Shown in pieces: positions 25,958-56,972 of a stretch of DNA of 64,000 nt. The stretch is from an uncultured Cytophagales bacterium. GTDB lineage: Bacteria; Bacteroidota; Bacteroidia; Cytophagales; Cyclobacteriaceae. The translations under genes and the position numbers were made by a program. Below the pieces are notes generated by a model that was given only the letters and a program-made list of their open reading frames with translations, was not told where the DNA came from and did not search any database. Position 1 is the first letter of the stretch. Each line of letters opens with the position of its first letter. The stretch covers positions 94,970-158,969 of the forward strand of contig CAVQEK010000007.1 in assembly GCA_963711495.1 (NCBI GenBank). Direction: 5' to 3'.

Positions 25958-27262
25958 CTATTGACTATTTGTTATTATTTTTTGACGAGAATTCACCCTC
26001 ATGATATAAGCCTGCCTGCTACCCGTTCGGGTTGAATTGAATCCGATTATATCTCCATTCTGACTCCACCGGCAGTGAAGGTCGCAGCGCCAGCCACCGG
26101 AAAATTCCTCTGGTTCGAAAAAACGCCCCAGAGACAACACGGCTTGAGTTTTCATATCCATCATGAAGATCTTCTGTTCATTCATGCCCTCACTCGGATA
26201 AGTATCGGTTATCATCCATTTCCCGTCTGGTGAAAAAGTTCCGTGAGCGTCGAAGTCAAGCAAGCCTTTGCCAAGTCGTGTATAATCTTCCTTCCCGACC
26301 GTAAACAAAACATGCGCGTATTGTTTTGCGTCGTATTTCGCGGTGATCATTAGCCGGTCGTCGTCAAGCCAATCAAAATGTGATCCTTCCCAGTCGTCGG
26401 GGAAACATCGCCGAAGCCCGGAGCCATCGACATTGACGGTGAAGCAGGTCGTATTTCTTCGCGGTGTCGCTCGGGCCAGCCAGAATATCTTCGTGTCTTC
26501 ACGGCTAAATAATGTATGGTTGAAATATTCAATGCCTTCGGGGGGAACTTCCGGCACCAATTCCCTAACCTGGGCCATCGATACGATCAGCTTTGCGCTT
26601 CCGGTTTCAAGATCAACCACAAATATTCCGTCGTTTTCAGGAAACTGCACATCTGCCAACGGATTCTGGCCTTCGCCTCCGTAACCGTAATCCGGGCGTG
26701 TTATGCGGATCCTGCCGTAATTGATACTTATGGCTATCTTGCCGTCGTGGGATACTGCGCTTATAGGGTACGGAATGATTCTCTTTTCTTCTCCGGTATG
26801 CACATTAAGAATGACCGATACAAACCGGCCATTTCGCAGATCATTGTAGATTATGAGGGAATCCGGAGAAGTCCCCAGCCAGTGCACCATGCAGCCCTGT
26901 TGGAAATTCCATGCCCTGGTCCTGGCCACCGGCTTGAATTTAAGGGTCTCAAGGTCAACGATGCCCAGTGTCACCGTATCGTTTTCCGTTGGTATTCTGT
27001 ATTTCACGTCGGTTTCCAGCACTGTTGCGTACCTTTCGGAAGCACTGAAAGAATTGATGCCGTAATAGCTCGCAAAAAAATGCTCCTTCGTGTTATCCGT
27101 TATTTGTAGCGGTGAAGAAATTTGCGGGAAAACGGCCCCGTTATCGTCTTTGCTTTTTCTGCAACCGCCCAAAATCAGGATGGCAAAAGTCGCCATAAAG
27201 AAAATTATCGATCTGTACATAATCATAATGACTTGGAATTTAATCAATTTATCTTGATTCAT
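25958..27262 (-). CDS. Lipoprotein with a TolB/oligogalacturonate-lyase-like beta-propeller (function uncertain)
   Basis: 434-aa ORF with a lipobox (ILILGGC). The repetitive beta-strand pattern has SPDGKW-type blades. The C-terminal WRCDLHCRWSQNGDIIGFNSTRTGSRQAYIM resembles the end of Ogl-type (PL22) propellers. The family call is by eye only. Confidence 0.4.
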   Translation of the reverse strand: MNQDKLIKFQVIMIMYRSIIFFMATFAILILGGCRKSKDDNGAVFPQISSPLQITDNTKEHFFASYYGINSFSASERYATVLETDVKYRIPTENDTVTLGIVDLETLKFKPVARTRAWNFQQGCMVHWLGTSPDSLIIYNDLRNGRFVSVILNVHTGEEKRIIPYPISAVSHDGKIAISINYGRIRITRPDYGYGGEGQNPLADVQFPENDGIFVVDLETGSAKLIVSMAQVRELVPEVPPEGIEYFNHTLFSREDTKIFWLARATPRRNTTCFTVNVDGSGLRRCFPDDWEGSHFDWLDDDRLMITAKYDAKQYAHVLFTVGKEDYTRLGKGLLDFDAHGTFSPDGKWMITDTYPSEGMNEQKIFMMDMKTQAVLSLGRFFEPEEFSGGWRCDLHCRWSQNGDIIGFNSTRTGSRQAYIMRVNSRQKIITNSQ

Positions 27263-27980: not shown

Positions 27981-29906
27981 TTATTTAAACGGCGTGGCCA
28001 GGTATCCCTCGATATCCGTCCAGTGCCGCAGCATGATCTTCCTTTTGGACTTAAGCTGCCCGATTAGGTCCGGACCGAGCAAAAATGTATCCTCATACTT
28101 CGGGTCTTTGGCATGGGCAATGAATTCCATCCCGCCATCTTCCAGCACATCGATCAGATCCTGGGTATTGTCCAACTCATCCCGCATCACAGCATTAAAT
28201 GCCTGCAAGTCGGGATCACCCTCCCAGGTGGGGCTTTTATCAGGCCGGTGAGGGGGCATGCTGAGTTTGTCGGCATTGCGGTCCCGAATCGCTTGTGCCT
28301 CGGCAAAATTTCCGATGGTCCGGAAAATACTGCTGTGGATCTTCAGGGCTGTCGCCAGATGTTGAAGAAAAGCCTTTTCCGGGGCATTCTCACTGGCTTT
28401 TTCTATCAAATCGATCGTCCGGTTGATCTTTGAGGTGTAATTACCTGCTGCTCCGGAAGCGAGGGTCCGGTGGGCGCCATGAATGTCGGTGAAATCCATC
28501 CGCGCCTCCTTTTCGGACGGATTGAATACATATGGCAGAAAATAAGCTTCTTCCTCCGGGGACAACCTGTCCGGGGCAATAACAAGCGGCCTGGTGATCT
28601 GCCGTTCGGACACGCCCCAATAGATCCCGGATGCGCCACCCAACGCTGTGCTTCTGTACTGATCGGCCTCCTCCAGGATCTGAAAAGCCTTAAACAACGG
28701 ATCGGCCCCTTCTTCGCCCCCCCAATCATGGCAAAGTTGTTTCAATTGCTCCAATTCTGCGATCACTCCTTCATCACCAGGATGTTTCAAATTCGCCACC
28801 AACAGGTCGAGATATTTGTCTGTCGTCGCAAGCGGCTCATATCCCCTGTCATAGGAAGCCCTGAAATTGATGAAGATCGTATTGGCCGGTTCATCTTTGA
28901 TGGAATTGACATTCCTGATGATCTCCAACGGGTCGAACAATCCGCGCACAGGATAGTTACCCAAGATCATGCTGTTTATTCCCTGTACAATGTCCGACCG
29001 GTGACCCTGGAAATAACATCCTTCCGGAAGATGCTGATAAATATCCTTCATTTCTTCGTCGGAAAACATAGATCCTACCAGGTAAATAGAAATATCCCGG
29101 CCGGCTTCCGCAGCGCCTGCTTTAAAAGTATTCATCAGCGTTTCGACCCGCTCTCCCATGCTCTTGTTTTTGCAATGTGCCGGGCCATTGGGGCCGACAT
29201 ACTGCCAGTCGGACCAGCAGATCCCTGAACCGGCGTCATTAGTCTTAAAAAAGAAGGTATGTATCTCCGGCACATTCTTCAGCAATTCGGCTACCATGTT
29301 ACGGTACATTTCCTGGGTTTCTTTCACACTGACGCAGGGCGCAAATGCCGGATGATTCCCGCGCCTGGGGTGATCAACCCTCGGTCCGCGCAGATGGGGA
29401 TATTTTTCAAAGAATGCGTCGGGCAGAAAATTGGGTTCATAACTCCAAAAGGCGGCGTCCAGTCCGTATTCGCGCAAGATCTTTGCTTTCGCCAGCAGCA
29501 GTTCGCGGTTTTTCTTCACAAAATCAGCCGGAATGAACGGGGCAATTTTAGGATCAGGGAAAAACTTATAGGGCGTAGGATTATAACTCGCGTACTCATA
29601 CCAGGAATTTCTCCCCTCGGGGATCTCATAAAAACCTTTTTCCGCCAAAGTACTGATGTTGATCTCGACCCGGCCGAATGGTTTCAGCCGGGAGGCCTGC
29701 TTGGCCAACGCCCGGAATTCATCCAGGTCTTTGATTGGCGCATGGATCACAAATACTTTCTCTTTGCTTTTCCCCGGGTCGTGAACCGCTTTTTCTTTTC
29801 CTTCATTGTTCTCATCTGCCTTCCCGATATTGATTGATGTCAATAAAAGCAAGCATGCCAATAAGAAACGCATTTTCCTCACATCATTTCTAATCATATC
29901 CTCCAA
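27981..29906 (-). CDS. Secreted protein of unassigned family (family-A copy 1; TIM-barrel-like N-half, helical C-half)
   Basis: 641-aa ORF. The probable start is MRFLLACLLLL at 29873. It shows strong, colinear similarity to 54981-56972 (for example YPHLRGPRVDHPRRGNHPAFAPCVSVKETQEMY...EIHTFFFKTNDAGSGICWSDWQYVGPNGPAHCKN). I recognise no catalytic signature. Confidence 0.7.
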   Translation of the reverse strand: MEDMIRNDVRKMRFLLACLLLLTSINIGKADENNEGKEKAVHDPGKSKEKVFVIHAPIKDLDEFRALAKQASRLKPFGRVEINISTLAEKGFYEIPEGRNSWYEYASYNPTPYKFFPDPKIAPFIPADFVKKNRELLLAKAKILREYGLDAAFWSYEPNFLPDAFFEKYPHLRGPRVDHPRRGNHPAFAPCVSVKETQEMYRNMVAELLKNVPEIHTFFFKTNDAGSGICWSDWQYVGPNGPAHCKNKSMGERVETLMNTFKAGAAEAGRDISIYLVGSMFSDEEMKDIYQHLPEGCYFQGHRSDIVQGINSMILGNYPVRGLFDPLEIIRNVNSIKDEPANTIFINFRASYDRGYEPLATTDKYLDLLVANLKHPGDEGVIAELEQLKQLCHDWGGEEGADPLFKAFQILEEADQYRSTALGGASGIYWGVSERQITRPLVIAPDRLSPEEEAYFLPYVFNPSEKEARMDFTDIHGAHRTLASGAAGNYTSKINRTIDLIEKASENAPEKAFLQHLATALKIHSSIFRTIGNFAEAQAIRDRNADKLSMPPHRPDKSPTWEGDPDLQAFNAVMRDELDNTQDLIDVLEDGGMEFIAHAKDPKYEDTFLLGPDLIGQLKSKRKIMLRHWTDIEGYLATPFK

Positions 29907-29933: not shown

Positions 29934-32573
29934 TTATTTCCCGTGTCCCTTTACATGGATTACCGCCGGTACACTTTCATTCCACCGGTTGTCGACGGCA
30001 ACTACTTTATAAAACAGGTCGCTTTGCCTTTCTGGCGGTACATCATTCACCGATGTTTTCATGACCGATCTGATCAACGTTTCGTTGCCACATTCGTCGT
30101 TGGCAGTCTTTCCGCAATAAATGGAATAATGATGCAGATCAGGGGCCGGTGAAGGTGTCCAGGAAAGGGTAATCCGGTCCCCGTTGACCGTGGCGTGAAG
30201 ACCTTTTACCTCCCCGGGAGCAATGCCGTCGCCGGGATACGGTGCCTCGGGTGTAAATTCATCCGTCGTAAATAGCAGCATATCCAATTTCAAATCGTCA
30301 TCTCCGGAAGACAATTCAATAGTTTTCTGTTGGCCATCTGGATTAAAAACACCCAGGCTCATCCATTTCCAGTCCTGCGATTGGACCGGAAACGCGTTGG
30401 CTCCAACAGACCAGGAACCAGTACCTTTGACACTACCCCATATAAAATAATGTCCCGCAGGCATCCCATCCAAGGGGATGTTGACCACTCCTTTCGACGC
30501 CGTTTCTGCAGTTGATTCCGCGTTGATGCGGACGCACTGAAATCCATTGGCGTACCCGTCAAAGAACCGTCTTGCCGGCGGGGTCAATGCCATGTCCTCG
30601 GCCTCGAAATAAAAGGACCTTGCACCTTCGGTCGAGACTTCACATGAAAAATCGCTTTCCAATCCGGAATGCTCCACCGACGCAATGGCGTAATACTTCC
30701 ACCGGCCATCAATCTTTGCCCGAATTTCCGTTAAAGGTTTTTCATTAAGCCGGACAAAGTCCCGGCCGCTGCTGTCTGAACCATAGATGTTGTAACCCGC
30801 AATCTCCCGGTGTCGCTTGGGCTGATCCCAGGTGATCAGTGCTCCATCGAGCGTTACATTGACCGGTGCGTCGGGTCGGCGGGTGTATACCATCTGGAGT
30901 TCTGTGCTGCCGATGGCATTTTCGTTATAAATCAGCTTGGTGTAATCCGGACTGGGGCGGCTGTAGGTGGTCGACGTCCAGGAAAATTTGGTAAAATACC
31001 GGGCCACCCGCATCACTGCCCCCGGATCTTTCGAAGAGATCATCAGATGTTGATGATCGACATCCACCCGGGTCCCGTTGGTGAAGACATACTGGTTGTC
31101 GGCGGTGAGCCTGCCGTAATCGGTGACAATGTCATTCTTCCAATTTGCCCAGACCGAAATTTTATCGCCCGGCGTAAATGTATCACCGATGTCTCCCGGG
31201 ACAAAAACATTCAGGTGCCCCCCGAAGTTGGCGACCATTCCGTTTGGTCCATGACTGGCGTGCCCGGCGCTGAATCCCGGCACAAGCCCTTTTTCTCCGA
31301 TGTCCAGGTTCATCCACCACACCTCATAGGTGTAACAATTGGCCCAGCGAATAATGTTGTCGTTGCCGCCCACACTGGCGTCTTTCAAGCGGGTAGGCAA
31401 ATTAATATACCGAGCCTTCTTGTTTTTAACATCGATGATGTACAGGTGCGGCGTTTCACGGAACGCCACCACAATGTTACCCAGCGGCGTAAACCGTTTA
31501 AATTCGATGTATGAGCCCACTTCAGGAACCGAAAATGCAGCAATAGGTGTTTCTTCTCCCGTGATCCTGTTCCACGAGAACACCGAAAACCGAAGCCCGT
31601 TCCTTTTCATCAGGTATAAGACATCGGGGTCATTTTCGCTCCACATCCTCCAACCGGCATCTTTCGGTCCGGCAATCACCCTTCCCTCTCCGGGTATGCA
31701 GATGGGAATACCGCCAATTTTCCGGCTACTTTCAAATTTTATGGCTGCGCCGTCTGCCGACCAGATGCCCCCTTCACCAAAATAATCATCACCCGGAGTT
31801 GCCGTGAGACGGGTGGTGATCCCACCGGTGGCATCATCCCTGAAAATCGCCATCTCTTCGCCATCTATAACCGGAACCAGGATATTTTCCCGCTTCTTCA
31901 AAGCTTCCAGCCCATGATATGGCCTGGGTCCCAGGTGCTCTTCCCGGATGGTAAGCCCGCTGCCGATCAATTTTTCCTGTTCCTCCTTGCTGAGTTCAGA
32001 AGCAAACTTGAGATCGTCCAGGGTCAGGTGGGTATGGTTGTCCTGAAGATCGATCCCAAAATTAACCCGCCGTTTTCCCCTGATCCGGTCGTCATCGTAA
32101 TCTTTTAAGTCAATGACCGTAAGCCCGGTGGTGTATCCCAGCTTCGTCGTGAACCCGTTGATATCAAAAAAACTGCTGGAACCTTTTTCCCGCACATCCA
32201 ACACCACATAGTGATACCAGTCTAGGTCCACCACGCCATAATCCTTCCTCAGGTTGGTGGACGTGTCCTCTGTGGATTCAATCCAGGGCCATTTTTCTGC
32301 GGCTTCTTCCAATGTTCTGAATTTATGATGGATGATCAGCACCCCATCCTTCGATTCCATCTTCAACGCCGGAAGAATCGTGTCTCCCCTCGGGTTGATT
32401 TCCCGCCATCCCTCCACTGTGGTAAAGTCATCGTGCAAACCAATCTTTTTACCGTCAGACTGACAGGAAATGCATAACACGATCAGACACACCAAAAAAA
32501 TTGCCGGGGTTAGCCGCATTGTCGATGTGGTTGATTTCAGCAAGCCCATATCACCACTATCAATTATCCTCAT
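29934..32573 (-). CDS. Multidomain secreted lipoprotein: N-terminal jelly-roll-like domain, Ogl/PL22-like beta-propeller, Fn3, CBM-like domain, Fn3
   Basis: 879-aa ORF. The probable start is MRLTPAIFLVCLIVLCISC at 32519. The propeller entry FRDDATGGITTRLTATPGDD...SADGAAIKFES and exit YSRPSPDYTKLIYNENAIGSTELQMVY resemble oligogalacturonate lyase. Fn3-like segments are present (ITWDQPKRHREIAGYNIYG; ITLSWTPSPAPDLHHYSIYCG), and a CBM-like block reads FYFEAEDMALTPP...LLFTTD. Confidence 0.6.
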   Translation of the reverse strand: MRIIDSGDMGLLKSTTSTMRLTPAIFLVCLIVLCISCQSDGKKIGLHDDFTTVEGWREINPRGDTILPALKMESKDGVLIIHHKFRTLEEAAEKWPWIESTEDTSTNLRKDYGVVDLDWYHYVVLDVREKGSSSFFDINGFTTKLGYTTGLTVIDLKDYDDDRIRGKRRVNFGIDLQDNHTHLTLDDLKFASELSKEEQEKLIGSGLTIREEHLGPRPYHGLEALKKRENILVPVIDGEEMAIFRDDATGGITTRLTATPGDDYFGEGGIWSADGAAIKFESSRKIGGIPICIPGEGRVIAGPKDAGWRMWSENDPDVLYLMKRNGLRFSVFSWNRITGEETPIAAFSVPEVGSYIEFKRFTPLGNIVVAFRETPHLYIIDVKNKKARYINLPTRLKDASVGGNDNIIRWANCYTYEVWWMNLDIGEKGLVPGFSAGHASHGPNGMVANFGGHLNVFVPGDIGDTFTPGDKISVWANWKNDIVTDYGRLTADNQYVFTNGTRVDVDHQHLMISSKDPGAVMRVARYFTKFSWTSTTYSRPSPDYTKLIYNENAIGSTELQMVYTRRPDAPVNVTLDGALITWDQPKRHREIAGYNIYGSDSSGRDFVRLNEKPLTEIRAKIDGRWKYYAIASVEHSGLESDFSCEVSTEGARSFYFEAEDMALTPPARRFFDGYANGFQCVRINAESTAETASKGVVNIPLDGMPAGHYFIWGSVKGTGSWSVGANAFPVQSQDWKWMSLGVFNPDGQQKTIELSSGDDDLKLDMLLFTTDEFTPEAPYPGDGIAPGEVKGLHATVNGDRITLSWTPSPAPDLHHYSIYCGKTANDECGNETLIRSVMKTSVNDVPPERQSDLFYKVVAVDNRWNESVPAVIHVKGHGK

Positions 32574-34425
32574 CTTTTCCCACGGTGATGGTAAAGGTCC
32601 CCCAGGTCACATTTCTTTTGATCGCCTTCCACTCCTTCACTTCATAATTGGCCAAAAACCTGATCTTGTGTCCGATAGGACAGTCCTTGGAAATATGCAC
32701 GATGGAAGAAACCGCATAGCCGTCACCCCACTTGTCGGGTTGCAGGTCCACATGGATGCGCTCGGAATCGATATATGGATCGTCGTAATAAAGCCGCGTG
32801 CGGTGACTTACCTCATAGACCATGATCCACTCTCCAGGCTCAGCAATATTATTCCCATTGCCACTCCCGAAGATCTCGCTGTCGCCATCATCAATTCCGA
32901 TGTGCGTAAATTGAGGAACGTCATAAAATACCGGGGCATCGAACTCATCATTCCAGGTATTCTGTTTTTTGTCCGTCACGGCAACCTGAAACCTGACCCT
33001 GAACGGCGAACCATCCTTGGTAGGCTCATTGGACGCGGTCACTTCAATATCAGTCGCTACCCAGCTATCTCCGCACGAAGGGATATCATCGATGGTGATG
33101 GTAGGATTTGCAATGGATACACCGTCAGCCAGGGTGGTCAAAGTCACCTTCAACCCTTTGGCCACTGCACCGCCGCGATTCAGGAGATGGAGCTTGAGGT
33201 TACATTCCTTTTTATGATCCAGGAAGGTCCCTTCTCCATTTACCTGATATCCAATAACCACGATCTCCGCCGGATCGTTTTTTCTAAAAATACCGATCTG
33301 GTGCGGCTCATGATCGACATCAAAATTTATCTTCCCTTCCGCATCACTCTTTACGGTTGACACTTCCTTTTTATTGAGTGATTCGTTGTAATCCAATAGA
33401 CTGTATGAAGCATTAGGGTGGTAAATTGCCGGGGTTTTAACGTTGATCTTCACGCCGGGGATGGTGCGGCCATGGGGCTCCCATTTTCTTGTGGTGATCC
33501 CCATGCCCCCTTTTGTCACGCCGTGCATGTCAATAAAGCCGGGTTCATCGAGGTTGCTTCGCACTTCATAGCCCCAGACATCAAAATTGGGATAAAGATC
33601 GGCATGATCCCACCGTTTCGGCTCCGGCAGTGGATCTTTAAACGCCCGGATCACAAAGTTGAATGCATCGGTAAGCTCTTCGGCAGTCAAATGATGCCCG
33701 CCCTCATAAATTTTATATTCAAAAGACAGATCACCTTCATGCAAAGCTCCCTGGTACACTTCGTTGTTCAGGTAAACCAGTTCGCCGTTGGTGCTGTTGT
33801 CAAACCTAAGCTTTACGCCGTGAAGATTCTTGAAGAAATAGCGAACACTATACAGTGTATGGTTATCAGGATACCCGATGAAAAATTCGGGAGATCCCTT
33901 AGAACTTACCGCTGCGCCGACTAACTGCGGATATTTCCCGGCCAGGTAAAAAGACATGATCCCTCCCATGCTGTGTCCGATAATTGCCCGGTGCGCCCGG
34001 TCGTTCAATGTCCGGTAGGTAGAGTCAATATGCGCTACAAATTCAAGAAAGTAATCCTTGAACTGCACCTGATAGTTGATGTTGGAATGAAAACCAACGT
34101 TATAGGGCCGAACATCGGACTCGACGGAACGGCCGTTCCAGGCCACCATGATCACCGAATTTTCCTTTGCCAACCGGGCCATCGTATCGGATAAGGGATT
34201 TTGATGGGTTCCTTTGTTGCCATGGAAAAAATAGATCACCGGATATCTTTTATTGGACGTTTCATAATCATCCGGCAAAAATATTCGATAGGGCTTTTCC
34301 CTGTTGAACACCTTGCTAAAATGAACTTTGTCTTGCTGTGCCAAAGATCCGGATGAAAGCCCTACCGTCACCATTAATACCAATGCGGCCACTTTCATCA
34401 GGTTGTTTACCATCAATTTTTTCAT
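32560..34425 (-). CDS. Secreted alpha/beta-hydrolase esterase (CE1 / esterase-D-like) with a beta-rich C-terminal extension; first gene of the operon
   Basis: 621-aa ORF with a signal peptide. It has YRIFLPDDYETSNKRYPVIYFFHGN, the nucleophile elbow AIIGHSMGGIMSF and EGGHH. It is a paralogue of 23685-25928. Confidence 0.7.
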   Translation of the reverse strand: MKKLMVNNLMKVAALVLMVTVGLSSGSLAQQDKVHFSKVFNREKPYRIFLPDDYETSNKRYPVIYFFHGNKGTHQNPLSDTMARLAKENSVIMVAWNGRSVESDVRPYNVGFHSNINYQVQFKDYFLEFVAHIDSTYRTLNDRAHRAIIGHSMGGIMSFYLAGKYPQLVGAAVSSKGSPEFFIGYPDNHTLYSVRYFFKNLHGVKLRFDNSTNGELVYLNNEVYQGALHEGDLSFEYKIYEGGHHLTAEELTDAFNFVIRAFKDPLPEPKRWDHADLYPNFDVWGYEVRSNLDEPGFIDMHGVTKGGMGITTRKWEPHGRTIPGVKINVKTPAIYHPNASYSLLDYNESLNKKEVSTVKSDAEGKINFDVDHEPHQIGIFRKNDPAEIVVIGYQVNGEGTFLDHKKECNLKLHLLNRGGAVAKGLKVTLTTLADGVSIANPTITIDDIPSCGDSWVATDIEVTASNEPTKDGSPFRVRFQVAVTDKKQNTWNDEFDAPVFYDVPQFTHIGIDDGDSEIFGSGNGNNIAEPGEWIMVYEVSHRTRLYYDDPYIDSERIHVDLQPDKWGDGYAVSSIVHISKDCPIGHKIRFLANYEVKEWKAIKRNVTWGTFTITVGKDEDN

Positions 34426-49722: not shown

Positions 49723-49753
49723 TGTGTAATAGCTCCGACTTGATCTGACAGTT
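49723..49753. repeat. IS481 terminal inverted repeat (end proximal to the transposase stop)
   Basis: Matches the reverse complement of 51015-51043 apart from a 2-nt indel and a few mismatches. The inner 18 nt, CGACTTGATCTGACAGTT, match 17 of 18. Confidence 0.75.
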
Positions 49754-50961
49754 CAAGGTGTTGGTTTTGAGTTTTCTTTAGGTATACCACTCCCAAAATG
49801 GTGATAAGCAAGGGGCAAATAAAGCCCCTCGCCATTTCGGTCGGCAAGGTTATTCCTGGCAGGTTGGTCTCCACCAGAGCCTGCTTCCGCTTCACCTTGC
49901 GGTAATAAAGGTACGAAATTTTCATTCTGCCGATCCAACAATTTTTCTTTCGCCAGATGTAAGGATTCTTCCCAGGTTTGTATTGGTGTTTTCCCAAAGC
50001 AGTATTTGCCTGAATGGGGCCGGTCATGGTTGTATTGATCAATCCAAACATCCAGATCCTGCTGAAGTTCTTCAATATTGTGGTAGATCTTCTTTCTAAA
50101 AGCCACCGCATAGAATTCGTCTTGTATGGTACGATGGAAGCGCTCACAAATGCCGTTGGTTTGAGGACTTTTGGCTTTTGTCTTACTATGGTCTATATCC
50201 TCAATGGCCAAATAAAGCTGATATTCATGATGCTCCCTGGAGCCACAATATTCAGTGCCTCGATCAGTTAAAATTCGAAGTAACGGGATGTCATATTTTT
50301 CATAGAAAGGGATCACCCGATCGTTCAGTATATCTGCCGCTACTAATGCATTTTTCCTGTCATACAACTTAACATGGGCTGTTTTGGCATATGTATCGAT
50401 AAATGTCTGCTGATAAATCCTGCCAACGCCCTTAATGGTTCCAACATAATAGGTGTCCTGGGCACCCAGGTAGCCCGGATGAAGTGTCTCTATCTCGCCC
50501 TGGGCCCGCTTCTCTTCCTTAGCCTTTTCCATGGCGGTAATTTGAGATTCAGTCAGTATCAATCCTTCTTGGGCAACTTTAGCCTCCAGAGCTTTGAGTC
50601 GCTTTCTGAAGGTCTCCAGATCATGTCGCAGCCAAACACAGCGCACACCACAGGGAGATATGAATACCCCTTCTTTCTTAAGTTCATTGGAGGCTCTTAA
50701 TTGGCCATATGCAGGATATTCATATGCAATGGATACGACACGTTCTTCTATGGCTGGCTCAATGCGATTTTTGTGATTCGGTTGGCGGCGGCTAAGTTCA
50801 GCCAATGCCATCTCTCCGCCTTGATCGTACAACTCTTTGTAGCGGTAAAAGCTATCTCGACTATATCCAAATATTTTACAGGCTTGGGATACATTGCCTA
50901 ATTGTTCGGCTAAGTTGAGTAGTCCTAACTTAGTTTTGATTACTTTTGTCTCTGTATTCAT
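49753..50961 (-). CDS. IS481-family DDE transposase (rve integrase core)
   Basis: 402-aa ORF. The N-terminal HTH reads LGNVSQACKIFGYSRDSFYRYKELY. The rve core has WLGAQDTYYVG-type D, ILTDRGTEYCG and SPQTNGICERFHRTIQDEFY. The stop codon lies inside the left inverted repeat. Confidence 0.9.
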   Translation of the reverse strand: MNTETKVIKTKLGLLNLAEQLGNVSQACKIFGYSRDSFYRYKELYDQGGEMALAELSRRQPNHKNRIEPAIEERVVSIAYEYPAYGQLRASNELKKEGVFISPCGVRCVWLRHDLETFRKRLKALEAKVAQEGLILTESQITAMEKAKEEKRAQGEIETLHPGYLGAQDTYYVGTIKGVGRIYQQTFIDTYAKTAHVKLYDRKNALVAADILNDRVIPFYEKYDIPLLRILTDRGTEYCGSREHHEYQLYLAIEDIDHSKTKAKSPQTNGICERFHRTIQDEFYAVAFRKKIYHNIEELQQDLDVWIDQYNHDRPHSGKYCFGKTPIQTWEESLHLAKEKLLDRQNENFVPLLPQGEAEAGSGGDQPARNNLADRNGEGLYLPLAYHHFGSGIPKENSKPTP

Positions 50962-51151: not shown

Positions 51152-53356
51152 TCATAAAATGATCGTGATTTCATCATTCTTATTCAAGTCAATCACTTTA
51201 GTGACTTTCCCTGCAACTACTTTATACGGACTTTGAAATACAACTTTGCCTTCGTTATCTTCATATTCCATCAATTCCTCCGAAACCATTCCCGCTTCAT
51301 CTGTTTCCCTGTCGACGACTTCTTTTCCATCTTTGTTTTGGATACGGACATCAATCCCGGACAGCGGATCCCCATCAGAATTGACTATTTTAATCTTTAA
51401 TGTCCAATACACGGAAAAGTGATGATCCTGACCGGTGGCATCAATCTTAAATTCACTTCCTTTGACTTCGTTGGATCGGAACTCCACATTTTGGGCGACG
51501 CATTCTTCACAACCGTCATAACCCAACAAAAAAGTTTTGCCAGTTGCCTCGCCAAGCGGGATGATCGTATTGCCGGTCAGTTTCGAATTGGAAGCGCCAC
51601 CGTACATTGTGGCAATCCATGCCGCCGGAACATTGGTTGTAATTGTGTTGCCGTAAAACTGACCCCCAAAATATTTGGGACCACCGCAAATGTACAACGC
51701 TGCGGCCCTGACTTTCGAAGCTGTATCCACTTTATTCACGATAAACTCATTGTCATAGACATAATTTTCCCCACCTCTGGCGCTGTAAAATATCCCCCAG
51801 GCCATAGGAATATATTTCTCCGGTTTTGGATAATTTTTTGCTGTAATATAAATTTTATTGTCGTGTATTCTGTCGCCTACTGTTGCTTGTGGAGAACCGG
51901 GCACAGCATGGTAATCGCCCATGCGTATAGCGGCTGTACTATATTCCTCCCGCCCATATTCACAAGTTGGCGCCGATGTCTCAATTTTAAAAATATTATG
52001 GTCTACTTCTGTGTACCGTGAAACATAGATTCCTGATCCCTGCTTCGGCTCAAAGCGATTGTTGTATATCCTGGAACTTTCGCCTGTTCCCATGATGCTA
52101 TAATGGTTCGTTACCGTTTGGTTGTTTATGAAAAGATTATCATGGACCAGCGATTTTTTTGCTTTGATCGACAGGCAGCCTTCTCCTCCGTTAAATTCAC
52201 AGTTGGCTATTTCGGTCGGGTTTTCACCACGGATAACAACAGAACAAAAGCCAACATGGCGCTGAATTAGAAAGGGCATATTTACATCGAACCGGCAATT
52301 ACTGATGTCCGCATAGGGCACATACACCGCCCCGCAACTGATACCACTTGTCTTTATATTGACATTTTCAAGGATGACTTTTACGTCATTGGCTGAAGAT
52401 TGGATGCCCCATGACTGTATCCCTTCCACTCCACTTTCAATGGTACCGTTCTTTATGGTGATTGTTCCTTGGCCAACTACCTGTGGCAGCGAAGACTTCG
52501 GTTTTCCTGTGGCCATGCCTTCGGTATAGTCATAAAAAGCGGGGATTGTCGGCGGGCGTGTTTCCGCAATCACATGATCATAGTGCGCCAATGGTGTAGT
52601 TTTATCAATAATGCTAATGCCTACATCCATGGCAGGACGGATATCGATTTGGTCGACCAGGCAATCTGTATTAGCCTTCACGCGGACCCGGTATTTCCCG
52701 GCAGGCAAGCCTGTGAGGTGCGCATAAACAAAGCCTCCGCCCAATCGCGGACGTTTGTTTTCAACCGGGCATCCCTGTTTGGTGCCGTCACCATACCGGT
52801 TCATACATTTTACTTCGTTGCCCTTCTCATCTTCCACATACACACTCACCCGCATCTCGTCGTCAGGATACTTCTCCATATCATGATAATAGTGCCCGGT
52901 GATGCCGCACATGGCAAAATAAGACCGATTGGCCACTGGCAAATAAACATACGAAGATGTGATCTCATCGCCGGCTTGTAAACTCATTAACTTATCACCT
53001 AAGAACACATGCACGTCTGCGGTATTCATCACTTTGGCCCCGGGAGCTTGCGAGACGTCCCAATCTTTTAGCCCTTCTTCAAACCCGGAATTCGGAATTT
53101 GGCCGTAGCTCGCATCGGAATATTTAACGGTATAACCATTCAGATCCAGAATTATGTCTTTTCCCAGAAAAAGCGTGCTCTTGTCGCTTGTAATATCGTT
53201 GGTCAATACGTAAGTCGCGCCGGCTTTGGCATAACTGCCTGCCTTTTTTATCGCTATTTCATTCCCAGAAATTTTCCGGTGTTCCACAGGCCGGTACTGT
53301 GCAAAACACGTTGATTCAAAAATTACAATAGTAAGTAGTGAAATGTATATATTCAT
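51152..53356 (-). CDS. Secreted right-handed parallel beta-helix protein (pectate-lyase fold) with an inserted beta-sandwich and a C-terminal carboxypeptidase-regulatory-like domain; family-B copy 1
   Basis: 734-aa ORF with a signal peptide. Periodic beta-helix turns are visible: IKNGTIESG, NVNIKTSG, NCRFDV, NCEFNGGEGCL, VHDNLFIN, IYNNRFEP, VDHNIFKI, IHDNKIYI, VYDNEFIV, FYGNTITT, LTGNTIIP. The C-terminus reads IVNSDGDPLSGIDVRIQNKDGKEV. It is a colinear paralogue of 58250-60487. Confidence 0.7.
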   Translation of the reverse strand: MNIYISLLTIVIFESTCFAQYRPVEHRKISGNEIAIKKAGSYAKAGATYVLTNDITSDKSTLFLGKDIILDLNGYTVKYSDASYGQIPNSGFEEGLKDWDVSQAPGAKVMNTADVHVFLGDKLMSLQAGDEITSSYVYLPVANRSYFAMCGITGHYYHDMEKYPDDEMRVSVYVEDEKGNEVKCMNRYGDGTKQGCPVENKRPRLGGGFVYAHLTGLPAGKYRVRVKANTDCLVDQIDIRPAMDVGISIIDKTTPLAHYDHVIAETRPPTIPAFYDYTEGMATGKPKSSLPQVVGQGTITIKNGTIESGVEGIQSWGIQSSANDVKVILENVNIKTSGISCGAVYVPYADISNCRFDVNMPFLIQRHVGFCSVVIRGENPTEIANCEFNGGEGCLSIKAKKSLVHDNLFINNQTVTNHYSIMGTGESSRIYNNRFEPKQGSGIYVSRYTEVDHNIFKIETSAPTCEYGREEYSTAAIRMGDYHAVPGSPQATVGDRIHDNKIYITAKNYPKPEKYIPMAWGIFYSARGGENYVYDNEFIVNKVDTASKVRAAALYICGGPKYFGGQFYGNTITTNVPAAWIATMYGGASNSKLTGNTIIPLGEATGKTFLLGYDGCEECVAQNVEFRSNEVKGSEFKIDATGQDHHFSVYWTLKIKIVNSDGDPLSGIDVRIQNKDGKEVVDRETDEAGMVSEELMEYEDNEGKVVFQSPYKVVAGKVTKVIDLNKNDEITIIL

Positions 53357-54980: not shown

Positions 54981-56972
54981 CTATTTAAATGGTGACGTCA
55001 TATAGTCTTCAATATCACGCCAATGATCCAGCATGATCTTGCATTTTTTGTTCAGTTGATCAATCAGGTCTGGCCCCGGCAAAAAGCAATCTTCATGCTT
55101 TTGGTCATTGGCATGGCAAACTTGCTCAAGGCCTCCACGCTCGAGAACCGCGATGAGTTCCTCAGTATTATCCAGTTCGTCCCGCATGATCTCGTTGAAT
55201 TGTAACAGATCCGGGTCTCCTGTCCAGGTAGGTTCCTTACTTGGCCTGTGGATCGGACCATTCAGCTTTTCAGCGTTTCTGTCACGGATGTCCTGTGCCG
55301 CAGCAAAATTCCCACAACTTCGCATTATGCTTGCATGGATCCTCAGCGCCGTCGAAAGATTCGTTATGAATTCATTTTCCGTTCTACGGTCAATCCTTTC
55401 AAGTTTACTACATATCCTCATTATCTTCTCCACATAAATCTTGACGGTATCACGGGAAGTTTTCCAACGACCACCGTGGATATCCAGATAATCCATCCTG
55501 GCCTGCTCGTTGGAAACATTGAAAATGTAAGGTAAAAAATAAGCTTCTTCATCTTTCGAAAGCCTCTGGGGAGCAGCAACGAGCGGCCTTGTCATCATTC
55601 TCACAGAAACACCCCAGTAGATCCCGGACAAATTACCCAAATTTGCGTTCCTGAACCTATTTACAGCATGCAATTCATCAAACGCCTGGTACAGGCTGTC
55701 GGCAAACTTTTCGCCAACCCAAGTGCTGCACCAGGTATGCAGTGTTTGTTGTAACGTCCACTGATCAGATGCACTGCTGAAGGTGCCATCCATCAGTTGA
55801 AAAATCAGGTCATCAACGGCTGGACTTTCATTTCCGCGACCATAGGCCCCATTGAAACTCAGAAATATGGTTTGCGATTTATGAACATCTATCTCCTTCA
55901 GGCTGTTCAGAAGGGAATACATATCCAGGATGCCTTTCGCGGGATACATTATCCAAAAATTGTTCCCGACCGTTCTCATCTCATGCGCAGGGGTGTTGAC
56001 AAAATAGCAGTTTTCCGGCAGCCTTTTCTGAATATCATCCCTTTCTTCATCCGAAAAATTCGATGAACCCTGGGCATGCGAAAGATAAACATCCAATGAT
56101 CTTCCCGCCTGGGAAGCGCCTGCCTGTAATGCCGCCAGCAAATGTTCTATCCGCTGACCAGTGGTTTCGTTTTTGCAATGATCAGGTCCGTTGGGTCCGG
56201 TATATAGCCAGTCGGACCAGCAATTGCCTGAGCCGGCATCATTGGTTTTAAAGAAGAAGGTTTTAATTTCCGGAGCATTCTTTAAAAGATCTGCCATCAT
56301 TTCAGTATACATATCCTGCATTTCTTTTACACTCAGGCAAGGGGAAAAGAAAGGAACATTACTGCGCCGGGGATGGTCCACACGTGGCCCCCTGAATTGG
56401 GGATAAGCTTCAAAGAAGGCGGAAGGCATGAATTCAGGTTCATTGCTAAAAAAAGCAGCATCCATACCATTTTCGCGCAGGATCTTTGCTTTTGCCAGCA
56501 TTAATTGTCTGTTATTACGTACAAATTCTTCGGGAACAAACGGGGCAATTTGTTCAAAAGGATAAAATTTGTACAGATTGGCAAAATTACTGGCATATTC
56601 GTTCCAGGGATTTCCCCCGGCAGGGATCTCAAAAAAGGCCTTATCGGCCACCACGCCAATATTGATCTGGACATTGCCGTATTTCTTCAGCCGCCAGGCG
56701 GAATGAACGAGTTGCCTGAATTCATCCAGATTGGTGATGGAATTGTTAATGATAAAAGTCGGCTTCCCGCTGTCGTTGTTTTGAACCATGCCGGACGTTT
56801 CTCTGGGAGCTTCAGTGTAACTATGGGCATGATCAGTTCCTTTTGACGGCATTGCCAACAGAATGGCCCAAAAACCAATTAAAAAAGATTTTATTATGAT
56901 CTTGTTATTTAGCCAATTTCCGACGAGACCCATGGCATTTTTTGTTGTATTAATTTCCATCATAAAAATCAA
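54981..56972 (-). CDS. Secreted protein of unassigned family (family-A copy 2)
   Basis: 663-aa ORF, colinear with 27981-29906 over essentially its full length. Example: YPQFRGPRVDHPRRSNVPFFSPCLSVKEMQDMY...EIKTFFFKTNDAGSGNCWSDWLYTGPNGPDHCKN, with the C-terminal ...MLDHWRDIEDYMTSPFK vs ...MLRHWTDIEGYLATPFK. Confidence 0.7.
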   Translation of the reverse strand: MIFMMEINTTKNAMGLVGNWLNNKIIIKSFLIGFWAILLAMPSKGTDHAHSYTEAPRETSGMVQNNDSGKPTFIINNSITNLDEFRQLVHSAWRLKKYGNVQINIGVVADKAFFEIPAGGNPWNEYASNFANLYKFYPFEQIAPFVPEEFVRNNRQLMLAKAKILRENGMDAAFFSNEPEFMPSAFFEAYPQFRGPRVDHPRRSNVPFFSPCLSVKEMQDMYTEMMADLLKNAPEIKTFFFKTNDAGSGNCWSDWLYTGPNGPDHCKNETTGQRIEHLLAALQAGASQAGRSLDVYLSHAQGSSNFSDEERDDIQKRLPENCYFVNTPAHEMRTVGNNFWIMYPAKGILDMYSLLNSLKEIDVHKSQTIFLSFNGAYGRGNESPAVDDLIFQLMDGTFSSASDQWTLQQTLHTWCSTWVGEKFADSLYQAFDELHAVNRFRNANLGNLSGIYWGVSVRMMTRPLVAAPQRLSKDEEAYFLPYIFNVSNEQARMDYLDIHGGRWKTSRDTVKIYVEKIMRICSKLERIDRRTENEFITNLSTALRIHASIMRSCGNFAAAQDIRDRNAEKLNGPIHRPSKEPTWTGDPDLLQFNEIMRDELDNTEELIAVLERGGLEQVCHANDQKHEDCFLPGPDLIDQLNKKCKIMLDHWRDIEDYMTSPFK

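What the first reader, a model, noticed from the sequence alone, without database searches (positions are those of the whole stretch)
29934..32573. 879-aa mosaic protein: jelly-roll, Ogl-like propeller, Fn3, CBM-like domain, Fn3
The central region begins FRDDATGGITTRLTATPGDD...SADGAAIKFES and ends YSRPSPDYTKLIYNENAIGSTELQMVY. These resemble the entry and exit of oligogalacturonate lyase (PL22) propellers, which are normally small cytoplasmic single-domain enzymes. Here the propeller is lipoprotein-anchored and fused to two Fn3-like modules and a carbohydrate-binding-like module. That implies activity on polymeric substrate at the cell surface. A second stand-alone propeller lipoprotein (25958-27262) lies two genes downstream.
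Basis: partly seen in the sequence, partly recalled or inferred. Interest (0 to 1): 0.6.

Follow-up and report, generated by a model that had tools for sequence, protein, structure and literature searches.

The report
Divergent PL22-like propeller lipoprotein, metal site lost
This gene encodes a rare five-domain secreted protein whose core is a distant relative of the oligogalacturonate lyase (PL22) propeller; it keeps the catalytic histidine but has lost the manganese site, so it may be a new metal-independent sugar-acid-cleaving enzyme, which is untested.

Summary
The 879-aa ORF (29934-32573, minus strand) and both quoted motifs are real. AlphaFold2 (pLDDT 88.8) gives signal/lipobox, an N-terminal all-beta domain, a 7-bladed propeller, Fn3, a beta-sandwich and Fn3.

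No PL22 Pfam hit exists, even at E<=10. Three lines still point to distant PL22 homology:
- The best fold match is PL22 (3pe7, E 6e-12, TM 0.65).
- A propeller-only profile aligns collinearly to PL22 (hhalign E 2e-4; shuffled and reversed controls E 0.07-0.85).
- An exhaustive search found bridging proteins with the same architecture that match both the target profile (E 7e-16) and PF14583 (29-30.5 bits).

The active site is remodelled. The base His242 maps to invariant H438. Mn ligands H287 and H355 map to conserved Tyr486 and Tyr537. Q350 and Arg217 have no counterpart, and H353 maps to T535.

The family is rare (about 50 clusters; 1 of 201 genomes of the order). In Bacteroidales it sits in an esterase-target-TIM-barrel triad, and three genomes add GH2 and two GH88. 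The downstream stand-alone propeller is a clearer PL22 relative (hhalign 96%).

Verdict: a new variant of the PL22 fold, a candidate metal-independent His/Tyr lyase. It is not a canonical Ogl, and its function is unproven.

The parts
29934..32573 (-). Whole ORF, 879 aa (P0001); the family's full-length members are mostly about 850-900 aa (some about 1050)
32463..32519 (-). Probable signal peptide and lipobox (M19-C37, MRLTPAIFLVCLIVLCISC); probable true start at M19
   Evidence: Sequence; Cys conserved in the family consensus; predicted helix 22-38. No SignalP/LipoP run.
31872..32453 (-). N-terminal all-beta domain (res 41-234), about 10 strands plus a short helical linker; also present in bridging proteins P0395 and P0404
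   Evidence: no PDB or Pfam sequence match
30876..31871 (-). Seven-bladed PL22-like beta-propeller (res 235-566); the most conserved domain (75% identity among close relatives)
31260..31262 (-). His438 codon; aligns with PL22 catalytic base His242; invariant in the target family (31/31), bridging family (5/5) and PL22 (16/16)
31116..31118 (-). Tyr486 codon; aligns with Mn ligand His287 (Tyr in 31/31 of the target family; His in bridging proteins and PL22)
30963..30965 (-). Tyr537 codon; aligns with Mn ligand His355 (Tyr in 27/31)
31077..31079 (-). Asn499 codon (TNG motif); aligns with PL22 Asp300 (GDG motif); Asn in 28/31
30624..30875 (-). Fn3-like module 1 (res 567-650)
   Evidence: PDB profile hit 3mpc E 9e-4 and titin Fn3 hits; beta-sandwich in the model
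30228..30623 (-). Beta-sandwich module (res 651-782), 'CBM-like' by shape and position only
   Evidence: no sequence match to any known family
29937..30227 (-). Fn3-like module 2 (res 783-879)
   Evidence: Pfam fn3 E 2e-4, below cut-off; PDB profile hit to chitinase Fn3 E 1.8e-5
32560..34425 (-). Upstream operon partner: 621-aa esterase (PF00756) with a long C-terminal extension; conserved next to the target in Bacteroidales relatives
27981..29906 (-). Downstream operon partner: 641-aa protein with no Pfam hit (P0054); conserved next to the target in Bacteroidales relatives
25958..27262 (-). Second, stand-alone propeller lipoprotein (P0053, 434 aa); a clearer PL22 relative that keeps His at the base and two metal-ligand positions; not a conserved neighbour of the target elsewhere

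Best explanation
The gene encodes a secreted, probably lipid-anchored, five-module carbohydrate-active protein. Its catalytic core is a highly divergent member of the PL22 (oligogalacturonate lyase) seven-bladed propeller superfamily. The catalytic-base histidine is kept (H438 = YeOGL H242). The Mn2+ site and the stabilising Arg217 are gone. Two metal-ligand histidines have become conserved tyrosines (Y486, Y537), and conserved Asn499 and Arg539 lie nearby in sequence. I infer that it cleaves a uronate-containing, probably esterified, complex glycan by metal-independent beta-elimination. In that scheme His acts as base, Tyr as acid, and Asn/Arg neutralise the carboxylate. It would work together with the co-transcribed esterase and the TIM-barrel-like protein, while the Fn3 and beta-sandwich modules space the enzyme or hold the substrate. 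Shown here: the architecture, the fold, the distant homology and the residue mapping. Inferred: lyase chemistry, substrate class and location.
For: Fold: Foldseek's top hit is 3pe7 (E 5.8e-12, TM 0.65, 383 columns) and 3c5m is also found; no TolB or DPP-IV in the top 50. Sequence: hhalign of propeller profile A4 against PL22 plus 3pe7/3c5m gives local E 2.3e-4 (score 38.5) and global probability 88%, collinear over 7 blades. Reversed and shuffled controls score 11-21, and rotated profiles only recover the true register. Transitive homology: profile A4 finds P0378 end to end (E 7e-16 in 1.8 billion proteins). P0378 matches PF14583 over positions 14-376 of 386 (28.9 bits), P0425 reaches 30.5 bits (cut-off 30), and P0395/P0404 share the target's N-terminal domain, Fn3, beta-sandwich and Fn3. 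Residues: H438 is invariant at the H242 column; Y486 and Y537 sit at the H287 and H355 columns. Constraint: the propeller is the most conserved domain. Context: a tight operon with two esterases. The esterase-target-P0054 triad recurs in at least 8 Bacteroidales loci. GH2 plus two GH88-type (unsaturated uronyl hydrolase family) genes follow in 3 genomes. An enolase-superfamily (MR_MLE) gene follows immediately, with a 4-nt overlap, in one locus of another clade and lies within 1 kb in a second. Bridging protein P0404 lies beside a heparinase II/III-like protein. The metal-independent mechanism class is described in PMC8377490.
Against: There is no PL22 HMM hit at any threshold, and the full-length profile comparison is insignificant. 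The local hhalign probability is only 45%. All four Mn ligands and Arg217 are lost, which could equally mean loss of lyase activity or a different chemistry. I had no model coordinates, so I could not show that H438, Y486, Y537, N499 and R539 cluster in space. The window's contig carries no GH88/GH105 gene. GH88 neighbours occur in only 3 of about 10 informative loci, and the Planctomycetota and Armatimonadota loci show no carbohydrate context. The catalytic roles of the YeOGL residues come from my memory of Abbott et al. 2010 (paper not held); only their positions were verified.
Confidence: 0.42

Rival explanations
1. It is an enzyme of the PL22-like fold with a different chemistry, for example a glycoside hydrolase, epimerase or esterase using His438 with Asp485, Tyr486 or Glu357, acting on a non-uronate or uronate glycan.
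For: The metal site and Arg217, which define PL22 chemistry, are lost. Other invariant polar residues exist (R284, D485, N499, K397, E357). The conserved partners are an esterase and a glycosidase-like protein, not lyase-pathway enzymes. The window has no GH88/GH105.
Against: The one universally conserved functional residue is the lyase base His. GH88 pairs, an MR_MLE gene and a heparinase-like neighbour in several loci point to uronate or sugar-acid chemistry.
Confidence: 0.25
2. It is a non-catalytic glycan-binding lipoprotein, like a surface glycan-binding protein, in which a dead PL22-like propeller and beta-sandwich modules capture substrate for the neighbouring enzymes.
For: Four of four metal ligands and Arg217 are lost. 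The multi-module Fn3 and beta-sandwich layout is typical of surface binding proteins. The lipoprotein sits in a glycan-utilisation region with SusC/D nearby.
Against: The propeller is the most conserved module (75% against 55% for the beta-sandwiches). The base His and a set of polar residues stay invariant down to 25% identity. That pattern is more typical of an active site than of a binding surface.
Confidence: 0.15
3. The resemblance to PL22 is generic: this is simply a PD40/TolB/Tricorn-type propeller with no specific relation to lyases, for example a protein- or peptide-binding scaffold.
For: Below the family itself, profile A4 mostly hits multi-repeat PD40 proteins through blade 1. PL22 proteins and P0053 also carry the generic Tricorn_N model PF26549. 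TM 0.65 is not high for propellers.
Against: PL22 structures outrank all other compact propellers. The alignment is collinear across all blades and register-specific. Bridging proteins share the whole multi-domain architecture and match PF14583 across the full model. The PL22 base His column is invariant.
Confidence: 0.1
4. It is a canonical Mn-dependent PL22 oligogalacturonate or pectate lyase, displayed on the surface to act on pectin.
For: PL22 fold and entry/exit motifs.
Against: No PF14583 hit. The Mn ligands and Arg217 are absent. There are no pectin-type neighbours, while sulfatases, GH127 and CE1-like esterases are present instead. The genome already has a bona fide PL22 elsewhere.
Confidence: 0.04

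Closest known systems
CAZy PL22 oligogalacturonate lyases (YeOGL, PDB 3PE7; VPA0088, PDB 3C5M; Pfam PF14583)
   Same: Seven-bladed propeller, best fold match. The order of blades is collinear. The N-terminal 'D-x-x-TG-x-x-T-R-L-T' and C-terminal 'S/T-P-D-x-x-K...G' velcro motifs match. The base His242 column is conserved as H438. W342, D293, G301 and D361 also have conserved equivalents.
   Different: No HMM match. About 14% identity. Mn ligands H287 and H355 are replaced by Tyr, H353 by Thr/Asn, and Q350 and Arg217 are deleted. The propeller is embedded in a five-module, 879-aa probable lipoprotein, whereas these enzymes are about 390-aa single-domain proteins. The gene context is not pectin-related.
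Uncharacterised multi-domain PL22-like proteins found here (P0378, P0395, P0404, P0425, P0417)
   Same: Same architecture: the same N-terminal domain in P0395/P0404, then propeller, then 'RRPD.P...ELAGYN.YR...E.SGLES' Fn3, beta-sandwich and Fn3. P0378 matches the target propeller profile end to end, at E 7e-16.
   Different: Their propellers keep His at the H287 and H353 columns and Glu at the Q350 column, so a metal site is likely. They also reach or approach the PF14583 cut-off. None has been characterised.
P0053 family (second propeller of this operon, 25958-27262)
   Same: PL22-like propeller lipoprotein in the same operon; the top fold hits are also 3c5m and 3pe7.
   Different: Single domain. 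A clear PL22 relative (hhalign 96%, E 1.3e-8). Keeps His at the H242, H287 and H355 columns and Asp at H353. A large family (1312 hits). No detectable pairwise similarity to the target and not a conserved neighbour of it.
Metal-independent beta-propeller lyases (PL24/PL25 ulvan lyases, PL42 Rha-GlcA lyase)
   Same: Analogy of mechanism only: propeller scaffolds that perform beta-elimination with His/Tyr-type catalysts and amino-acid charge neutralisers (general scheme in PMC8377490; family details from my own knowledge).
   Different: They were not among the top 50 fold matches. Homology is not claimed.
TolB / PD40 / Tricorn_N propellers
   Same: Blade 1 of the target profile hits many PD40-repeat proteins.
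   Different: Those matches cover only the first blade or two (profile positions about 7-100). There are no TolB or DPP-IV structures in the top 50 fold hits for the target.

Membership tests
PL22 (Pfam PF14583, oligogalacturonate lyase) | Match to the family HMM at or above the curated cut-off (30 bits) | tested here: not met
   No hit for P0001 even at E<=10. The whole-genome six-frame scan with PF14583 at E<=10 hits only C5 and C6, not the window.
PL22 (Pfam PF14583, oligogalacturonate lyase) | Seven-bladed beta-propeller closest to solved PL22 structures | tested here: met
   Foldseek rank 1 is 3pe7 (E 5.8e-12, TM on target length 0.65, rmsd 4.6 over 383 columns); 3c5m TM 0.62. The model has pLDDT 88.8.
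PL22 (Pfam PF14583, oligogalacturonate lyase) | Catalytic base His242 (YeOGL numbering; role recalled from Abbott et al. 2010) | tested here: met
   H438 aligns to H242 in hhalign and MAFFT; invariant in 31/31 family members.
PL22 (Pfam PF14583, oligogalacturonate lyase) | Mn2+ ligands His287, Gln350, His353, His355 | tested here: not met
   Y486, deletion, T535 and Y537 respectively. The genome's own Bacteroidota-type PL22 also differs at three of these positions (Y/E/N plus a new His), so this criterion is strict only for the enterobacterial type.
PL22 (Pfam PF14583, oligogalacturonate lyase) | Arg217 stabilising the enolate or carboxylate | tested here: not met
   It aligns to E417 (hhalign) or to a gap (MAFFT). 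Arg is invariant in 16/16 PL22 sequences.
PL22 (Pfam PF14583, oligogalacturonate lyase) | Beta-eliminative cleavage of oligogalacturonate | not testable with these tools
   Needs an enzyme assay.
PL22-like superfamily (distant homology) | Statistically supported link through intermediate sequences | tested here: met
   Profile A4 matches P0378 at E 7e-16, full length. P0378 matches PF14583 at E 6e-7 over positions 14-376 of 386, and P0425 reaches 30.5 bits against a cut-off of 30. Direct hhalign gives E 2.3e-4, with controls at E 0.07-0.85.
Fibronectin type III (PF00041) | HMM match and beta-sandwich fold, two copies | tested here: inconclusive
   Pfam fn3 scores 21.9 bits against a cut-off of 25 for residues 789-833 only. 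The PDB profile gives Fn3 hits for both modules (E 1.8e-5 and 9e-4). Some homologues carry precomputed PF00041. Both modules are beta-sandwiches in the model.
Carbohydrate-binding module (any CBM family) | Sequence or fold match to a defined CBM family | tested here: not met
   There is no Pfam hit and no PDB sequence hit for the 651-782 profile or the 41-234 profile. A domain-level fold search could not be run.
Bacterial lipoprotein | Signal peptide followed by a lipobox Cys | tested here: inconclusive
   MRLTPAIFLVCLIVLCIS-C37 is read from the sequence, and the Cys is conserved in the family consensus. No predictor was run. No clear Bacteroidota surface-export motif follows the Cys (CQSDGKK).

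The most novel reading that the evidence does not exclude
The family founds a new polysaccharide lyase family or subfamily that evolved from the Mn-dependent PL22 propeller into a metal-independent His/Tyr beta-eliminase. Two metal-ligand histidines became tyrosines, the base histidine was kept, and the enzyme is fixed in a conserved five-module secreted architecture. It would act on an esterified uronate-bearing glycan that no known enzyme family covers.
Probability: 0.33. Interest if true: 0.65.

Novelty: new variant of a known kind. Interest (0 to 1): 0.5.

Why it matters
Lyase families are normally either metal-dependent or metal-independent. A documented switch between the two on a single fold would show how lyase active sites evolve. 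Here the bridging family still looks metal-binding, while this family carries Tyr at the former ligand positions. In practical terms, the family and its conserved esterase and TIM-barrel partners carry no annotation in Pfam, NCBIfam or the source databases. They sit in glycan-utilisation loci of Bacteroidales, Planctomycetota and Armatimonadota from environmental metagenomes. They are therefore candidates for the missing enzymes that open up complex, substituted acidic polysaccharides. If the protein proves inactive or merely binding, it would be an ordinary accessory lipoprotein.

Tried and rejected
- Pfam and NCBIfam scans of the full protein gave nothing but a weak fn3.
- phmmer and a full-length profile against PDB sequences gave only Fn3 hits and a 40-residue 3pe7 match at E 0.35.
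- hhalign of full-length A1 against a single PL22 and against PL22 alignment A2 was insignificant (probability 5-8%; the first aligned only the signal peptide, the second an off-register internal stretch). Significance appeared only after trimming to the propeller and adding the crystal-structure sequences.
- BLASTP of the target against the second propeller P0053 showed no similarity. hhalign A4 against A3 was weak (E 1.2e-3).
- Domain profiles for the N-terminal and CBM-like modules found no PDB hit.
- I could not obtain Abbott et al. 2010 or any held paper stating the YeOGL residue roles.
- PF26549 is not in the local Pfam; it was later identified as Tricorn_N.
- P0053 homologues were not found within 10 kb of any target homologue, so the 'two propellers work as a pair' idea was dropped.
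- There is no GH88/GH105 on the window's contig.
- Model coordinates are not exposed, so I could not check spatial clustering of the candidate catalytic residues or run a domain-wise fold search.
Full report
**Observation.** The likely start is M19. It gives MRLTPAIFLVCLIVLCIS-C37, a signal peptide ending in a lipobox-like Cys that is conserved in the family consensus. No predictor was available, so 'lipoprotein' is read from the sequence only. The gene sits in a tightly packed minus-strand operon: esterase (621 aa), target, P0054 (641 aa, no Pfam hit), a gene fragment, propeller P0053 (434 aa), esterase (747 aa). A PfkB kinase gene follows on the same strand after a 650-nt gap. A SusC/SusD, sulfatase, GH127 and DUF4838 locus lies next to it.

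**Architecture.** A homology search returned 51 proteins, most of them full-length 'hypothetical proteins' with no Pfam domain beyond an occasional fn3. With a 35-sequence alignment (A1), AlphaFold2 gave a confident model (pLDDT 88.8, pTM 0.86). The modules are:
- an N-terminal all-beta domain (41-234);
- a propeller of about 25 strands (235-566), which I assign to seven blades;
- three beta-sandwich modules (567-650, 651-782, 783-879).

The first and third sandwiches are Fn3-like by PDB profile hits (E 9e-4 and 1.8e-5) and a sub-threshold Pfam fn3 hit. The N-terminal domain and the middle sandwich have no detectable relatives by sequence. 'Jelly-roll' and 'CBM-like' therefore remain descriptions of shape.

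A six-frame scan of the 7.26-Mb genome at E<=10 finds one real PL22 on another contig (93 bits) and nothing in the window. Three independent lines nevertheless indicate distant homology.
1. Fold. Foldseek's best hit is YeOGL 3pe7 (E 5.8e-12, TM 0.65 on the target's length, 383 columns), with Vibrio 3c5m also present. The other top hits are giant Fn3 or propeller proteins with rmsd above 18 A, and no TolB or DPP-IV appears.
2. Profile comparison. A propeller-only alignment drawn from the window and 20 fetched loci, down to 25% identity (A4), aligns to a PL22 alignment containing the two crystal sequences at local E 2.3e-4 (score 38.5). The global probability is 88%, collinear over all blades. 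Reversed or column-shuffled profiles score 11-21 (E 0.07-0.85). Circularly rotated profiles only ever recover the true register. The match is therefore not generic blade-to-blade similarity.
3. Bridging sequences. An exhaustive hmmsearch of 1.8 billion representatives with A4 finds about 25 family clusters, then many PD40-repeat proteins that hit only blade 1. It also finds P0378, matched end to end at E 7e-16.
   - P0378 matches PF14583 over positions 14-376 of 386 (28.9 bits).
   - P0425 reaches 30.5 bits against a cut-off of 30.
   - P0395 and P0404 share the target's N-terminal domain, the same Fn3, a beta-sandwich and a second Fn3.

I put homology to the PL22 superfamily at about 0.8.

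**Active site.** The alignment of the genome's own PL22 to 3pe7 showed that chain numbering equals author numbering. It located R217, H242, H287, Q350, H353 and H355 in the sequence. Their roles are recalled from Abbott et al. 2010, which is not held: H242 as base, R217 as stabiliser, the other four as Mn ligands. hhalign and an independent three-way MAFFT alignment of 31 target-family, 5 bridging and 16 PL22 propellers agree on the mapping:

| YeOGL residue | Target family | Bridging family | PL22 |
|---|---|---|---|
| H242 (base) | H438, His 31/31 | His 5/5 | His 16/16 |
| H287 (Mn ligand) | Y486, Tyr 31/31 | His 5/5 | His 16/16 |
| H355 (Mn ligand) | Y537, Tyr 27/31 | Ala 4, His 1 | Asn 15, His 1 |
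| H353 (Mn ligand) | T535 (Thr/Asn/Arg) | His 4/5 | Glu 15, His 1 |
| Q350 (Mn ligand) | in an 8-residue deletion | Glu 4/5 | gap 15, Gln 1 |
| R217 | E417 or a gap | Gly/Thr/His | Arg 16/16 |
| D300 | N499, Asn 28/31 | Asp 4/5 | Asp 16/16 |

Among the columns conserved (>=90%, same residue) in both the target family and PL22, H242 is the only known catalytic residue. The propeller is the most conserved module, at 75% identity among close relatives against 55-67% for the others. Even the genome's bona fide PL22 subfamily has Tyr, Glu and Asn at the Q350, H353 and H355 columns. Metal ligation therefore already varies within PF14583.

**Context.** In Bacteroidales relatives (Prolixibacteraceae, Mariniphaga, Maribellus and Draconibacterium MAGs), the esterase-target-P0054 triad recurs in at least eight loci. 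DUF6807 and a putative sugar-acid catabolic cluster (Nramp-like transporter, SDR, 351-aa protein) are often nearby.
- Three genomes add GH2 and two GH88-family genes, the family of unsaturated uronyl hydrolases that process lyase products.
- In a clade at about 50% identity, an enolase-superfamily (MR_MLE) gene follows the target (4-nt overlap in one locus, about 0.5 kb downstream in another).
- Bridging protein P0404 lies beside a heparinase II/III-like protein.
- Against this, the window's contig has no GH88/GH105, and the Planctomycetota and Armatimonadota loci show no consistent carbohydrate context.
- The family is rare. It appears in only 1 of 201 sampled genomes of the order, the window's own genome.

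**The second propeller.** P0053 (25958-27262) is a lipoprotein of a much larger family (1312 hits). It is a clear PL22 relative: hhalign 96%, E 1.3e-8, with top fold hits 3c5m and 3pe7 followed by TolB. It keeps His at the H242, H287 and H355 columns and Asp at H353. It is not detectably similar to the target and is not its neighbour in other genomes. The operon thus holds two independently diverged PL22-superfamily propellers.

**Interpretation.** The best-supported reading (0.42) is a secreted enzyme of the PL22 fold that has exchanged the Mn2+ site for a His/Tyr (plus Asn/Arg) set. It would act as a metal-independent beta-eliminase on an esterified uronate-bearing glycan. This is the mechanistic class described for metal-independent lyases (PMC8377490). 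The rivals are:
- another chemistry on the same scaffold (0.25);
- a non-catalytic binding lipoprotein (0.15);
- a generic PD40 propeller with no specific relation to lyases (0.10);
- a canonical Mn-dependent Ogl on pectin (0.04).

The inference of canonical PL22 chemistry is not supported.

**Novelty and score.** This is a new variant of a known kind: an unannotated, rare, architecturally fixed branch of the PL22 superfamily with a remodelled active site. Interest is moderate (0.5). It is a well-defined candidate for a new lyase family and for a metal-to-Tyr transition on one fold, but its function is entirely inferred.

Noticed in passing
window 25958-27262 (-), P0053: The stand-alone propeller lipoprotein is a clear distant PL22 relative (hhalign 96%, E 1.3e-8; top fold hits 3c5m and 3pe7). 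It has His at the base and two metal-ligand columns and Asp at a third, but no Arg217 equivalent. It belongs to a large unannotated family (1312 hits) labelled only PD40/Tricorn_N. It may be the operon's metal-dependent lyase.
   Followed up: partly
own genome G000:C5:243732-244826 (L001:1477-2742, -): The genome's bona fide PL22 (93 bits to PF14583) carries a signal peptide with a lipobox Cys. Its subfamily has invariant Tyr, Glu and Asn at the YeOGL Q350, H353 and H355 columns plus a new invariant His two residues later. Bacteroidota-type PL22 enzymes are therefore secreted and have a different metal-ligand set from the crystallised enzymes.
   Followed up: partly
proteins P0118 and P0139: There are 646-aa fusions of a PL22 propeller with SGNH/GDSL esterase domains (PF13472, PF00657). 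One cluster has 106 member sequences. They parallel the esterase-propeller pairing seen as separate genes in this operon.
   Followed up: no
L020:10671-11635 and L028:10673-11674: The target homologue in a Draconibacterium MAG appears frameshifted within the propeller (two tblastn segments in different frames). The one in a Pirellulales MAG has an in-frame stop in the propeller. These are either pseudogenes or assembly errors.
   Followed up: no
L005:8768-9973, L037:8766-9968, L017:8200-9300: In three relatives a 400-aa protein with a weak Peptidase_M14 hit is inserted between the esterase and the target homologue. It is absent from the window.
   Followed up: no
L036:11545-12660, L009:13090-14268: In the clade at about 50% identity, the target homologue is followed by an enolase-superfamily (MR_MLE) gene, with a 4-nt overlap in L036 and about 0.5 kb downstream (after a small DUF1284 gene) in L009. 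A GFO/IDH/MocA oxidoreductase gene lies close by on the opposite strand. This hints at a sugar-acid product.
   Followed up: partly
window 54981-56972 (-), 51152-53356 (-) and 58250-60487 (-): P0054 has a paralogue (663 aa, about 46-54% identity to P0054 homologues in relatives) in the second glycan locus of the window. Two beta-helix-like paralogues (734 and 745 aa, weak NosD hit) also recur near target homologues in L016, L019 and L020.
   Followed up: no
window 49753-50961 (-): An IS-type transposase (HTH plus rve integrase core) separates the two glycan-utilisation regions of the window.
   Followed up: no
L038:3555-6299 (-): The bridging-family protein P0404 lies beside a 914-aa DSE-like_N plus heparinase II/III C-terminal domain protein on a short metagenomic contig.
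   Followed up: no
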